Shown one piece after another: positions 49,390 through 51,578 of a stretch of 64,000 nt of DNA. Source of the DNA: an uncultured Alphaproteobacteria bacterium (GTDB lineage: Bacteria > Pseudomonadota > Alphaproteobacteria > RF32 > CAG-239); contig CALXTD010000002.1 of assembly GCA_944391315.1 (NCBI GenBank), positions 24,573 through 88,572 of the forward strand, written 5' to 3'. How positions within the stretch are numbered: the stretch's first letter is position 1; every line of letters starts with the position of its first letter. Below the pieces are notes generated by a model. The model ran no database searches and was not told where the DNA came from. It saw only the letters and a program-made list of their open reading frames with translations. Made by a program: the position numbers and the translations under genes.

Positions 49390-49506
49390 TTGCAATCTTT
49401 GTTTTATTGTATATAATCCGCTGTGATCATGGAGCGAGACTGTGCGAATGGCATGCCGGCTCGCTTACAATGCATCCGTTTGATAATCTTTGTGAAAGGA
49501 AGCAAA
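49390..49506 (+). promoter_or_regulatory. rpmI-rplT promoter plus a ~85-nt structured leader (possible L20 autoregulatory site)
   Basis: TTGCAA (49390-49395), a 16-nt spacer, then TATAAT (49412-49417). The leader contains the hairpin GAGCGAG..CTCGCTT. The regulatory role is inferred by analogy with L20 feedback in other bacteria. Confidence 0.4.
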
Positions 49507-49704
49507 ATGCCTAAATTAAAAACTAAAAGCGCTGCTAAAAAGCGTTTCAGCGTTACCGGTACAGGTAAGTTGAAGAGAAATTTTGCCAATAAGAGACACC
49601 TCCTCTTTAATAAAGGTACCAAAATGAAAAGACAGGCTCGCGGTACGACTTTGGTCAACGAAGCCGATGTTAGCTTGGTTAAAAAATATTTGCCCTATAT
49701 GTAA
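49507..49704 (+). CDS. rpmI: 50S ribosomal protein L35
   Basis: [27 protein letters not shown] is the classic L35 N-terminus. Confidence 0.95.
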
Positions 49705-49719
49705 TGAAGGAGTCCTACA

Positions 49720-50079
49720 ATGTCTCGTATTAAAAGAGGTTTGACAGCTCACGCTCGTCACAAAAAGATTTTATCTATGGCTAAGGGCTATAGAGGTCGT
49801 AATAAAAATGTTTTCCGCGTTGCCGTTGAAAAAGTTGAAAAAGCTCTTCAGTATGCTTATCGCGACAGAAAAGCTAAGAAAAGAAGTTTTCGCGCTTTGT
49901 GGATCCAACGTATTAACGCTGCTGCTCGTTTGAACGATATCACTTATTCTCGATTTATGAGCGGGCTTACCAAAGCCGGCATCGAACTCGACCGAAAAGT
50001 CCTTGCTGATATCGCTTTGAAAGAGCCTGCTAATTTTGCTTCTCTGGTTGAGAAGGCAAAAGCTGCTTTGAGCAAATAA
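49720..50079 (+). CDS. rplT: 50S ribosomal protein L20
   Basis: [48 protein letters not shown]. Confidence 0.95.
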
Positions 50080-50115
50080 TCTGTTTTTCTTTCGCCCAAG
50101 GGTGCAACGAGGAGG

Positions 50116-50340
50116 CTGGAAGGAACTGACATAGGTTGGGCCGGAAGGTGTGAACAAAAGTTGAGCCGGAAGGGACTGACGGAGGTTGGCCGGAAGGTGT
50201 TAACGGAAGTTGGACCGGAAGAGGTGAAAGAGGAGTAAGCCGGAAGGTGTGCAGAGCCAAAATTTGATTGGCTGAGGAGTATGACCGGAAGGTGAGAACG
50301 AAAGTTGTTTGGAAGGCACAAATGATGGTGCCGGAAGGGC
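50116..50340 (+). repeat. purine-rich array of CCGGAAGG motifs with ~25-nt period in the rplT 3' region
   Basis: Motif starts are at 50116 (CTGGAAGG), 50141, 50166, 50190, 50215 (CCGGAAGAGG), 50240, 50285, 50311 (GGAAGG only) and 50331. Unit consensus is approximately CCGGAAGGTGTGAACNGAAGTTGRN. Confidence 0.85.
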
Positions 50341-50376
50341 AGAAGAGATTATCTGTTATATCAGAGTTTGAAAAAA

Positions 50377-50411
50377 AGAGTTAACTGATGTTTTTCGGTT
50401 GACTCTTTTTT
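50377..50411 (+). terminator. terminator ending the rpmI-rplT transcript after the repeat array
   Basis: AGAGTTAAC..GGTTGACTCT followed by TTTTTT. Confidence 0.7.
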
Positions 50412-50474
50412 ATTTTAAATTTGAAGAAAAAATACTATTATTAATCTTGTGTTTTAATGTTCAGGTGTAAAACT

Positions 50475-51578
50475 ATGGAAAATCTTGAAAATTTGAAATC
50501 AGAATTGTTGGCTGAAATTGCCGGCGTTTCGGATCTTAAGGCTTGGGATGAGTGCCGTGTTGCCCTTATCGGTAAAAAAGGTAAAATTACCGAACAGCTG
50601 AAAGGCTTGTCGGCGCTTCCGTTAGAGCAAAAAATTGAGGCCGGAAAAAAACTCAATGTCTTGAAATCTGAAATTGAAGCGGCTTTGGCAGCTCGTAAAG
50701 ACGTGTTGGAAGTTGAAGAACTTAATAAAAAATTGATGAGTGAAACGGTTGATGTGACTTTGCCTATTCGTCCTGAAGCTCAGGGTCGGATTCATCCTGT
50801 TTCTAAAATCTATGAAGAAGTTGTTGCCATTTTTGGCGAAATGGGCTTTGAGGTTGCCGAAGGGCCGGATATTGAAGATCAATTCCATAACTTTAACGCT
50901 TTGAATATGCCGGCAAACCATCCGGCGCGTCAAATGCAAGATACGTTCTATATTCCTAACAAAAACAGCGATGATTTTGACGACAGCTATGTGGTTCGTA
51001 CGCATACGTCGCCGGTGCAAATTCGTACAATGGAAGCTAAGCGTCCGCCTATTCGTATTATTGCTCCGGGGCGTACTTATCGTTCAGACTATGATGCTAC
51101 ACACACGCCGATGTTTCATCAGGTCGAAGGTTTGGTTATTGATAAAAATATTACCATGGCTCATCTTAAAGGCTGCTTGTATGACTTTGTTAAGGCCTTT
51201 TTTGAGCTTGATGAAATTCCGGTACGTTATCGTCCATCGTATTTTCCGTTCACAGAGCCTTCGGCTGAAATGGATATCGGTTGCTTGAAGACCAAAACCG
51301 AGCTTAAAATCGGTGCCGGAACCGACTGGCTCGAAATCTTGGGCTGTGGAATGGTTCATCCCAGCGTTTTAAAGGCCGGTGGCATCGATCCTGATGAATA
51401 TCAGGGATTTGCCTTCGGGGTCGGAATTGACCGCTTGGCGATGCTTAAATACGGCATTCCTGACTTGAGAACATTTTTTGAATCCGATGTTCGTTGGTTG
51501 AAGCATTATGGCTTTACGCCATTGGATTTTTCTTCAATGACAGGTGGTTTGAGCAATAACGGAGGAAGCGCAAGATGA
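50475..51578 (+). CDS. pheS: phenylalanine--tRNA ligase alpha subunit
   Basis: HPARQMQDTFYI, RTHTSPVQIR and FPFTEPSAEMDI are class II motifs. Start at ATG 50475. Confidence 0.95.
   Translation: MENLENLKSELLAEIAGVSDLKAWDECRVALIGKKGKITEQLKGLSALPLEQKIEAGKKLNVLKSEIEAALAARKDVLEVEELNKKLMSETVDVTLPIRPEAQGRIHPVSKIYEEVVAIFGEMGFEVAEGPDIEDQFHNFNALNMPANHPARQMQDTFYIPNKNSDDFDDSYVVRTHTSPVQIRTMEAKRPPIRIIAPGRTYRSDYDATHTPMFHQVEGLVIDKNITMAHLKGCLYDFVKAFFELDEIPVRYRPSYFPFTEPSAEMDIGCLKTKTELKIGAGTDWLEILGCGMVHPSVLKAGGIDPDEYQGFAFGVGIDRLAMLKYGIPDLRTFFESDVRWLKHYGFTPLDFSSMTGGLSNNGGSAR

What the first reader, a model, noticed from the sequence alone, without database searches (positions are those of the whole stretch)
50116..50340. 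~25-nt-periodic array of CCGGAAGG (SD-like, GGA-containing) motifs between rplT and its terminator: candidate protein- or ribosome-titrating RNA
Seen in sequence: seven CCGGAAG(G/A) copies lie at 50141, 50166, 50190, 50215, 50240, 50285 and 50331. Two degenerate copies lie at 50116 and 50311. Spacings are 24-25 nt, except where unit 5 carries an inserted hairpin (AGCCAA..TTGGCT). The unit consensus is approximately CCGGAAGGTGTGAACNGAAGTTGRN. The 225-nt tract is almost devoid of pyrimidine runs, so it is probably largely single-stranded. It contains many GGAGG, GAAGG and AAGGTG strings. It lies inside the rpmI-rplT transcription unit, upstream of the terminator at 50377-50411. Only repeat-driven shadow ORFs cross it. 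Established knowledge: CsrB/RsmZ-type RNAs sequester CsrA through arrays of GGA motifs, and GGAGG/AAGGUG strings are complementary to the 16S 3' end. Inference: this 3'UTR could act as a sponge for an RNA-binding protein or for 30S subunits. It could also be a processed sRNA, or merely an expanded minisatellite.
Basis: partly seen in the sequence, partly recalled or inferred. Interest (0 to 1): 0.6.

Follow-up and report, generated by a model that had tools for sequence, protein, structure and literature searches.

The report
Strain-variable G-rich minisatellite after rplT
The flagged tract is a real but fast-changing tandem repeat (2 to 10 copies of a 25-base purine-rich unit) in the untranslated RNA after the ribosomal protein L20 gene of an uncultured gut alphaproteobacterium. 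It is most likely an ordinary variable-number repeat, not a protein or ribosome sponge, because the bacterium and its whole family lack CsrA.

Summary
Window 50116-50347 holds nine head-to-tail 24-25-nt units (consensus CCGGAAGGTGTGAACGAAAGTTGGG). They lie between the rplT stop (50079) and a terminator hairpin (50372-50411).

The sponge reading is not supported:
- CsrA is absent from this genome and from 61 genomes of the family.
- Anti-SD-complementary sites, Hfq-type (ARN)n runs and G-quadruplex scores are no higher than composition predicts.
- There is no Rfam match, no second copy in the genome and no rRNA mimicry.

The array behaves as a VNTR. Fourteen alleles from closely related strains and species (L20 protein 99-100% identical, 13 of them fully identical) carry 2 to 10 units. 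Strains with 99.7-100% identical rpmI-rplT DNA differ by whole units, and the array diverges about ten times faster than its flanks. Outside this clade the array is missing, and other genera have a 76-144-nt spacer that is essentially one conserved hairpin.

Best reading (0.6): a lineage-specific minisatellite carried as an unstructured purine-rich 3'UTR spacer.

One pattern remains unexplained. This is the third most G-rich, C-poor tract of the genome. The other top intergenic tracts also follow ribosomal-protein or RNA polymerase genes. Two of them start with an 18-nt motif that is dispersed across the genus (38 copies in one species).

The parts
49390..49417 (+). promoter-like site of rpmI-rplT (TTGCAA-16-TATAAT)
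   Evidence: Consensus scan, 10 of 12 matches.
49507..49704 (+). rpmI (ribosomal protein L35)
   Evidence: Pfam Ribosomal_L35p, E 3e-23.
49720..50079 (+). rplT (ribosomal protein L20)
   Evidence: ORF; Pfam Ribosomal_L20, E 4e-47.
50080..50115 (+). left flank of the array: pyrimidine-rich start, then GAGGAGG. Conserved in the clade, deleted in one allele (L160).
50116..50347 (+). Minisatellite of nine units starting at 50116, 50141, 50166, 50190, 50215, 50240, 50285, 50309 and 50331. The unit at 50240 carries a 19-nt hairpin insert (50255-50273). The unit at 50309 is the variant GGCAC-loop-GTGCC hairpin unit (50315-50332). The last unit is truncated.
   Evidence: Unit consensus from 17 distinct units of 14 alleles. 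Copy-number polymorphism.
50348..50373 (+). right flank with the box ATCAGAGTTTGAAA, conserved in 12 species of the genus just before the hairpin
50372..50411 (+). intrinsic terminator or attenuator hairpin with A-run and T-run. The outer stem AAGAG/CUCUU is invariant across the family and the inner stem covaries.
   Evidence: Alignment fold of 44 distinct sequences, 6 of 11 pairs with compensatory changes.
50414..50441 (+). promoter-like site before pheS (TTTAAA-16-TATTAT)
   Evidence: Consensus scan, 9 of 12 matches. This is a weak match.
50475..51578 (+). pheS (phenylalanyl-tRNA synthetase alpha)
   Evidence: Pfam tRNA-synt_2d, E 1e-102.

Best explanation
The tract is a lineage-specific, hypervariable minisatellite (VNTR). 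A 24-25-nt G/purine-rich unit has been amplified head to tail in the spacer between the rplT stop codon and the conserved hairpin that ends the rpmI-rplT unit and precedes pheS.

Copy number changes by whole units. Units are also replaced or shuffled, as expected from slipped-strand mispairing and unequal recombination between repeats.

The array is carried along as an unstructured, purine-rich 3'UTR or intercistronic spacer of the mRNA. It has no dedicated trans-acting partner. It is probably tolerated because a purine-rich, C-poor sequence cannot pair with itself or with the hairpin, and offers neither C-rich Rho-loading sites nor AU-rich RNase E sites.

Shown here: the array, its polymorphism, its narrow distribution, the absence of CsrA, and the lack of any motif enrichment beyond composition. 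Inferred: that it is transcribed as a 3'UTR, the slippage mechanism, and near-neutrality.
For: (1) Copy number. Ten metagenome contigs encoding the identical L20 protein have rplT-pheS spacers of 199, 272, 298, 301, 345, 345, 346, 371, 394 and 395 nt, which is 3 to 10 units in whole-unit steps. The three nearest species have spacers of 297, 226 and 301 nt, with 4, 2 and 0 exact cores.

(2) Clean indel. G004 matches the query as 1-404 plus 566-761 with an 8-nt overlap. This is a repeat-to-repeat indel of about 161 nt inside DNA that is 98% identical.

(3) Faster divergence than the flanks. Strains with 99.7-100% identical rpmI-rplT DNA carry about 3, 5, 9 or 10 units. Across three strains, the array region has 3 of 268, 16 of 268 and 18 of 245 mismatches, plus a 25-nt gap in the third. 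The comparison regions have 0-2 of 573 (rpmI-rplT), 1-7 of 800 (pheS) and 0-1 of 127 (right flank).

(4) Narrow distribution. There is no exact CCGGAAG core in the other 11 species of the genus. Other genera have compact spacers of 76-144 nt, apart from two longer ones.

(5) Single locus. No other copy exists in the 1.5-Mb genome, and there is no Rfam match.

(6) No partner or motif signal. CsrA is absent. Anti-SD sites, (ARN)n runs and G4Hunter (maximum 0.88) are all at or below what composition predicts.

(7) Non-coding. The 25-nt period is not a multiple of three and there is no sense ORF.
Against: (1) The unit keeps a conserved block (GTTGG-N-CCGGAAGG plus GAAC), while six positions vary.

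(2) All 14 alleles of the clade keep at least two units.

(3) Motif-like remnants (YCGGRAAGG; genome background 0.047 per kb per strand) occur in the same spacer of three more distant species. In one of them they lie on the other side of the hairpin.

(4) The tract is the third most G-rich, C-poor 200-nt window of the genome. The other top intergenic tracts also follow rpsU, rplL, rpmD and rpoA, always G-rich on the coding strand. This association looks non-random, and slippage alone does not explain it.

(5) Related species carry different G-rich tandem repeats in the same spacer.

(6) No expression data could be examined.
Confidence: 0.6

Rival explanations
1. The array is a binding platform or sponge for an RNA-binding protein other than CsrA (Hfq or an unknown protein). 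It could act within the mRNA or as a processed 3'UTR-derived RNA that shares the rplT terminator.
For: Nine periodic copies share a conserved block. Each CCGGAAGG can form a 2-3-bp stem with a GGAA (GNRA-type) loop, and such mini-hairpins appear in the MFE structure. Hfq is encoded in the genome. The array shares a Rho-independent terminator, as known 3'UTR-derived sRNAs do. The motif persists in all 14 alleles.
Against: Copy number ranges from 2 to 10 among near-identical strains. The core has decayed in every unit of G009. (ARN)n motifs are not enriched. The mini-hairpins are marginal and absent from the centroid structure. No candidate binder was identified, and there is no conservation beyond one clade.
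Confidence: 0.12
2. The array is a cis-acting 'tuning knob'. Its length sets the distance between ribosomes terminating at the rplT stop and the conserved hairpin. In this way it alters termination, read-through into pheST, or mRNA stability.
For: In most genera of the family the hairpin lies about 20-30 nt after the rplT stop, and the pheS start follows shortly after the hairpin (18 nt where counted, L032). This leaves no room for a pheS promoter, so pheST must be expressed by read-through. The hairpin's outer stem is invariant and the inner stem covaries. The array is inserted exactly between the stop and the hairpin.
Against: This genome has 64 nt and a promoter-like site between the hairpin and pheS, so coupling may already be lost. 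Housekeeping genes are unlikely targets of contingency-type tuning. No data exist on expression.
Confidence: 0.1
3. The array is a local, tandem-repeat form of a genus-wide class of G/A-rich, C-poor tracts placed at the ends of highly expressed translation genes. These tracts would share a DNA-level or RNA-level role (for example topological or R-loop related, an antisense Rho-loading site, or a purine-rich RNA) or a shared generating mechanism.
For: The five largest truly intergenic G-rich tracts of the genome follow rpsU, rplT, rplL, rpmD and rpoA, all on the coding strand. Homologous positions in relatives carry tracts of different sequence and length. An 18-nt head motif followed by a variable polypurine tail is dispersed in the genus, with up to 38 copies in one species. 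Different G-rich tandem repeats occupy the rplT-pheS spacer in G005, G002 and G011.
Against: The rplT array lacks the 18-nt head motif. It is a regular repeat, not an irregular tract. It lies upstream of the terminator, not downstream. No mechanism is known, and the enrichment was judged by inspection of an unannotated genome.
Confidence: 0.12
4. The array is a CsrB/RsmZ-type sponge that sequesters CsrA through arrayed GGA motifs.
For: There are 17 GGA in 246 nt, and some sit in possible hairpin loops.
Against: There is no CsrA (PF02599) in six-frame searches of this 98%-complete genome. None of 61 genomes of the family scores over the cut-off, while the controls scored. The array has no promoter of its own and is not conserved.
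Confidence: 0.01
5. The array is a sponge for 30S subunits, acting through SD-like strings complementary to the 16S 3' end.
For: There are four strong anti-SD-complementary sites, at about 50108, 50178, 50228 and 50273.
Against: The counts of windows with duplex energy of -6 or -8 kcal/mol or lower equal those of dinucleotide shuffles (P 0.44 and 0.56). The periodic CCGGAAGG core is not among the strong sites. The SD-like units are missing in several alleles.
Confidence: 0.03

Closest known systems
Bacterial intergenic VNTR or minisatellite loci, for example the MIRU-VNTR loci of Mycobacterium tuberculosis (own knowledge)
   Same: Head-to-tail units of tens of bases lie in non-coding spacers of operons. 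Whole-unit copy-number polymorphism occurs among very close strains, and the flanks are conserved.
   Different: MIRUs are 46-100 bp and form a dispersed family at about 40 loci. This is a single-locus, 25-nt, strongly purine-rich unit, and it is not found elsewhere in the genome.
CsrB/RsmZ/RsmY family of CsrA-sequestering sRNAs (background in PMC4894983 and PMC11882849, abstracts only)
   Same: A non-coding RNA region with many GGA motifs, partly repetitive.
   Different: There is no CsrA in the genome or family. The tract is not an independent gene, it is not conserved, and the GGA motifs are not reliably presented in hairpin loops.
3'UTR-derived sRNAs and sponges that share the mRNA terminator (for example CpxQ and SroC; own knowledge), and the rrA/rrB/rrF sRNAs at the ends of E. 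coli rrn operons (PMC8144298, abstract)
   Same: The tract lies between a highly expressed translation-machinery gene and a Rho-independent terminator, and Hfq is present.
   Different: Such sRNAs have a conserved seed, whereas here the body is hypervariable. No evidence of processing is available.
RPE-1-like hairpin repeat arrays described by earlier agents in this same genome (e1-4841638, e1-4841639)
   Same: They are strain-variable tandem arrays placed right after stop codons in this genome.
   Different: Those units are about 125-nt long palindromic hairpins and are dispersed. This unit is 25 nt, non-palindromic and purine-rich, and occurs at a single locus.

Membership tests
CsrB/RsmZ-type sponge RNA | Cognate CsrA/RsmA protein encoded in the genome | tested here: not met
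   PF02599 gives no match at E<=1 in the own genome. None of 61 family genomes scores over the cut-off, and the controls were positive.
CsrB/RsmZ-type sponge RNA | Many GGA motifs presented in hairpin loops | tested here: inconclusive
   There are 17 GGA. Only marginal 3-bp CC/GG stems with a GGAA loop are predicted, and the centroid is almost unpaired.
CsrB/RsmZ-type sponge RNA | Independent sRNA gene with its own promoter, conserved among relatives | tested here: not met
   No promoter-like site lies between rplT and the array. The array is absent outside one clade.
Bacterial VNTR / minisatellite | Head-to-tail units of 10-100 bp | tested here: met
   TRF period 25 and 49. Nine units.
Bacterial VNTR / minisatellite | Whole-unit copy-number polymorphism among closely related strains, with conserved flanks | tested here: met
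   Alleles carry 2-10 units and differ by whole 24-25-nt units. The flanks are 94-100% identical.
Dispersed repeat families (REP/BIME, MITE, RPE) | Multiple dispersed copies in the genome; palindromic units | tested here: not met
   Only the locus itself matches in the genome; all other hits are chance 14-20-mers. The units are not palindromic.
3'UTR-derived sRNA | Shares the mRNA's Rho-independent terminator; Hfq available | tested here: met
   Terminator at 50372-50411. Hfq gene at G000:C3:40760-40948.
3'UTR-derived sRNA | A stable processed or separately transcribed RNA species with a conserved seed | not testable with these tools
The array body is not conserved. Only the box ATCAGAGTTTGAAA next to the hairpin is conserved in the genus.
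G-quadruplex-forming tract | G4Hunter score of about 1.2 or more, or four G-runs of 3 or more | tested here: not met
   G4Hunter (window 25) has a maximum of 0.88 and a mean of 0.49. The G-runs are almost all GG. Only two-tetrad folds are conceivable.
rRNA-mimic operator for a ribosomal protein | Sequence or structure shared with the protein's rRNA site | tested here: not met
   This MAG has no 23S gene. Against the 23S of a congener, the longest shared words are 11-12 nt, occur in both orientations and are at chance level.

The most novel reading that the evidence does not exclude
The rplT array may be one local product of an undescribed, genus-wide phenomenon. In this genus, G/A-rich and C-poor tracts are built or selected at the 3' ends of the most highly expressed translation genes (rpsU, rplL, rplT, rpmD, rpoA), always on the coding strand. 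The phenomenon would include a dispersed element with a conserved 18-nt head (TGGCTAATTTTGTCTAAA) and a non-homologous polypurine tail of 60-500 nt, present in up to 38 copies per genome. Such tracts would then have a common function (RNA-level or DNA-level) or a common generating enzyme.
Probability: 0.15. Interest if true: 0.7.

Novelty: new member of a known kind. Interest (0 to 1): 0.3.

Why it matters
The array itself is of modest importance. It is a good strain-typing marker for an uncultured gut alphaproteobacterium, and it shows that a GGA-rich periodic tract need not be a Csr-type sponge.

It would matter more if the wider pattern is real. Extreme G-rich, C-poor tracts cluster behind ribosomal-protein and RNA polymerase genes, and a dispersed 'conserved head plus variable polypurine tail' element has no counterpart among the described bacterial repeat families known to me. 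Both point to an unknown mutational or regulatory process in these reduced gut genomes.

Tried and rejected
- Rfam at permissive thresholds on the locus and on the other G-rich tracts gave only noise.
- A pattern scan of JGI metagenomes for CCGGAAGG-N16/17-CCGGAAGG-N16/17-CCGGAAG returned more than 120 hits. All hits in the readable part of the output (which was truncated) were unrelated: coding 24-nt repeats or 8-12-nt microsatellites in soil, marine and other samples.
- CsrA sponge: rejected because there is no CsrA.
- 30S or anti-SD sponge: site density equals that of shuffles.
- Hfq distal-face (ARN)n platform: not enriched.
- G-quadruplex: G4Hunter is far below threshold, although GG runs exceed mononucleotide shuffles (29 against 21.7).
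- 23S rRNA mimicry: I recalled an E. coli 23S string, GUGCCGGAAGGU. It is not present in a congener's 23S, and the shared words are at chance level.
- Coding or read-through extension of L20: the period is not a multiple of three, there is no start codon, and unit indels would shift the frame.
- T-box-like tRNA-Phe sensing: UGGUGCC in the variant unit resembles the complement of a tRNA 3' end. However, it is not conserved among alleles and no UUC specifier exists in the array. I did not pursue this.
- Mini-ORF ATG-TTT-TTC-GGT-TGA (50388-50402) in the terminator loop: it is present only in this clade, so it is probably chance.

Full report
**What is there**

The window region reads as follows:
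- rpmI (49507-49704) and rplT (49720-50079);
- a 395-nt spacer;
- pheS (from 50475).

The spacer holds, in order:
- a 36-nt left flank;
- nine head-to-tail units of 24-25 nt (50116-50347);
- a conserved right flank;
- a 17-pair terminator hairpin with flanking A-run and T-run (50372-50411);
- a weak promoter-like site (50414-50441).

Six units carry the exact core CCGGAAGG. One has CCGGAAGA and two are degenerate (CTGGAAGG, TTGGAAGG). The window holds nine exact matches against 1.3 expected, and no shuffle reaches nine. TRF reports period 25 and a 49-nt super-period.

The tract has about 40% G and is poor in pyrimidines. Its centroid fold is nearly unpaired, with a z-score of -2.0. The stronger z-score of the whole 3'UTR (-4.8) comes mainly from the terminator. 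No sense ORF crosses the tract, and Rfam has nothing.

**Whose genome**

The contigs belong to an uncultured gut alphaproteobacterium. The assembly is 1.5 Mb with 41% G+C, and its relatives are human and animal gut MAGs. The MAG has no rRNA genes.

**The array is a VNTR**

A DNA search of 40 relatives showed that the nearest species differ from this genome mainly by the length of the array. G004 aligns as query 1-404 plus 566-761 with an 8-nt overlap. This is a clean repeat-to-repeat indel of about 161 nt in DNA that is 98% identical.

Extracted spacers are as follows:

| Genome | Spacer length | Core copies |
|---|---|---|
| G000 (this genome) | 395 nt | 7 copies of CCGGAAG |
| G012 | 297 nt | 4 |
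| G004 | 226 nt | 2 |
| G009 | 301 nt | none exact, six decayed |

A look-up of the exact L20 protein found ten further metagenome contigs. Their spacers are 199, 272, 298, 301, 345, 345, 346, 371, 394 and 395 nt, which is 3-10 units. The alleles differ by whole units, unit replacements and point changes. One allele has also lost the left flank.

Strains whose rpmI-rplT DNA is 99.7-100% identical to the window carry about 3, 5, 9 or 10 units. In three strains of similar length, mismatch counts are as follows:

| Region | Mismatches |
|---|---|
| Array region | 3 of 268, 16 of 268, 18 of 245 |
| rpmI-rplT | 0-2 of 573 |
| pheS | 1-7 of 800 |
| Right flank | 0-1 of 127 |

The array is thus the fastest-evolving piece of the locus.

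Seventeen distinct units give the consensus CCGGAAGGTGTGAACGAAAGTTGGG. The conserved parts are CCGGAAGG, GAAC/TGAC and GTTGG. Six positions are variable.

**Distribution**

The other eleven species of the genus have no exact CCGGAAG core. Eleven other genera of the family, and about 70 further species fetched by PheS, almost all have spacers of 76-144 nt.

Such a spacer is essentially one hairpin, AAAGAGY-[variable inner stem]-RCTCTTTT, followed by ATTTTAAA and shortly afterwards by the pheS ribosome-binding site and start. In 44 distinct sequences the five outer pairs are invariant, and six of the eleven predicted pairs show compensatory changes.

The array is therefore an insertion or expansion between the rplT stop and a family-wide conserved terminator or attenuator. 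In the compact species there is no room for a separate pheS promoter, so pheST is probably read through there (inference).

**Tests of the sponge idea**

- *CsrA.* The Pfam model finds nothing in six-frame searches of this 98%-complete genome. Nothing scores over the cut-off in 61 genomes from 23 genera of the family, while the control genomes score.
- *Ribosome or anti-SD.* Four strong complementary sites exist (about 50108, 50178, 50228 and 50273). The number of strong windows equals that of dinucleotide shuffles (P 0.44 and 0.56). The periodic core is not among the strong sites.
- *Hfq.* The gene is present, but (ARN)n runs are not enriched.
- *G-quadruplex.* GG runs exceed mononucleotide shuffles, but the G4Hunter maximum is 0.88, well below usual thresholds.
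- *rRNA mimicry.* Shared words with a congener's 23S are 11-12 nt, occur in both orientations and are at chance level.
- *Dispersal.* No other copy exists in the genome.
- *Metagenome pattern scan.* It gave only unrelated repeats in the part of the output I could read.

**What argues for more than junk**

- All 14 alleles keep at least two units and a conserved block.
- Motif-like remnants (YCGGRAAGG; background 0.047 per kb per strand) occur in the same spacer of G010, G011 (two copies 23 nt apart, downstream of the hairpin) and G013.
- G005 and G002 carry different G-rich repeats in the same spacer. One example is a 20-nt unit, GAGGCAGGCGGAGAGGCCT, repeated about seven times after the hairpin.
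- Genome-wide, the array is the third most G-rich, C-poor 200-nt window.
- The first two such windows follow rpsU and rplL. Two more intergenic tracts follow rpmD (before rplO) and rpoA. In every case the G-rich strand is the coding strand of the upstream gene.
- In relatives, the rpsU and rplL tracts are present with different sequence and length, up to about 500 nt.
- Both tracts start with an 18-nt motif, TGGCTAATTTTGTCTA(A/G)A. This motif is dispersed in the genus: 38 copies in G007, 11 in G002, 7 in G014, 6 in G005 and 2 in G000. In every copy read it is followed by a non-homologous G/A-rich, C-poor tail, and where the upstream sequence was inspected it typically sits shortly after an intrinsic terminator.

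The rplT array lacks this head, is regular rather than irregular, and lies before the terminator. Its membership in that class is therefore unproven. The enrichment near ribosomal genes was judged by inspecting an unannotated genome, not by a formal test.

**Verdict**

The best-supported reading (0.6) is a lineage-specific minisatellite carried as an unstructured purine-rich 3'UTR spacer. It changes by slippage or unequal recombination and has no dedicated partner.

The rivals are:
- a platform for a non-CsrA RNA-binding protein, or a processed sRNA (0.12);
- a cis-acting length 'tuning knob' for the hairpin, pheST read-through or mRNA stability (0.10);
- membership in a genus-wide class of G-rich tracts at the ends of highly expressed genes (0.12);
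- a 30S sponge (0.03);
- a CsrA sponge (0.01).

As a kind of object it is a new member of a known kind, the bacterial VNTR. Interest is modest for the array itself. The wider G-rich-tract pattern and the head-plus-polypurine element deserve their own follow-up.

Noticed in passing
G000:C1:62881-63225 (L120:482-826), G000:C38:472-692 (L121:472-692), G000:C20:17733-17918 minus strand (L122), G000:C20:11696-11841 minus strand (L123): The most G-rich, C-poor intergenic tracts of the genome all follow translation or transcription genes: rpsU, rplL, rpmD (before rplO) and rpoA. In each case the G-rich strand is the coding strand. The tracts are irregular and full of GGAGG/GAGGGG strings. Nearly every T in them starts a stop codon, so they hold no ORF. 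Three of the four lie downstream of the gene's terminator.
   Followed up: partly
G000:C1:62949-62966 and G000:C38:525-542; relatives L291-L319: The 18-nt motif TGGCTAATTTTGTCTA(A/G)A heads the rpsU and rplL tracts and is dispersed in the genus: 38 copies in G007, 11 in G002, 7 in G014 and 6 in G005, against 0-2 for the reversed-pattern control. In every copy read it is followed by 60-500 nt of non-homologous G/A-rich, C-poor sequence, and where the upstream sequence was inspected it typically sits shortly after an intrinsic terminator. Some copies are tandem at a spacing of about 220 nt. There is no Rfam match.
   Followed up: partly
window 50372-50411 and homologous positions in L013-L118: The hairpin between rplT and pheS keeps an invariant outer stem (AAGAG/CUCUU) and the following ATTTTAAA across 44 distinct sequences from many genera, while the inner stem covaries. 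In most genera the pheS start follows within about 20-40 nt. The hairpin may therefore be a regulated attenuator that pheST transcription must read through.
   Followed up: partly
L014 (G005) and L016 (G011), rplT-pheS spacers: Other species of the genus carry unrelated G-rich tandem repeats in the same spacer, but downstream of the hairpin. G005 has a 20-nt unit, GAGGCAGGCGGAGAGGCCT, repeated about seven times. G011 has two 23-nt units with GTCGGRAAGG.
   Followed up: no
L141 and L137 (G004), L299 (G005): In G004 the G-rich tracts after rplL and rpsU both end at the same repeated sequence (ATACTGCCCCAAGTTTCGGGAA..., followed by an ATG-started ORF). The same sequence appears in G005. It may be an insertion element that targets or accompanies these tracts.
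   Followed up: no
L018 (G008) and L022 (G003), between the hairpin and pheS: Small genes are inserted between the conserved hairpin and pheS. By eye, the one in G008 looks like a DUF559-type endonuclease-domain protein. This spacer is therefore an insertion hot spot in the genus.
   Followed up: no
window 50388-50402: A four-codon ORF, ATG TTT TTC GGT TGA (Met-Phe-Phe-Gly), lies in the loop and 3' arm of the terminator just before pheS. It is reminiscent of Phe-rich attenuation leaders, but it is present only in this clade, so it is probably chance.
   Followed up: partly
G000:C12:15874-16330, C25:55-451, C4:64929-65320, C6:45675-46174: TRF finds 170-200-nt units repeated about 2.3 times at 94-99% identity. 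Each contains a terminator-like hairpin. They are probably the structured mini-cassettes described by an earlier agent (e1-4841637).
   Followed up: no
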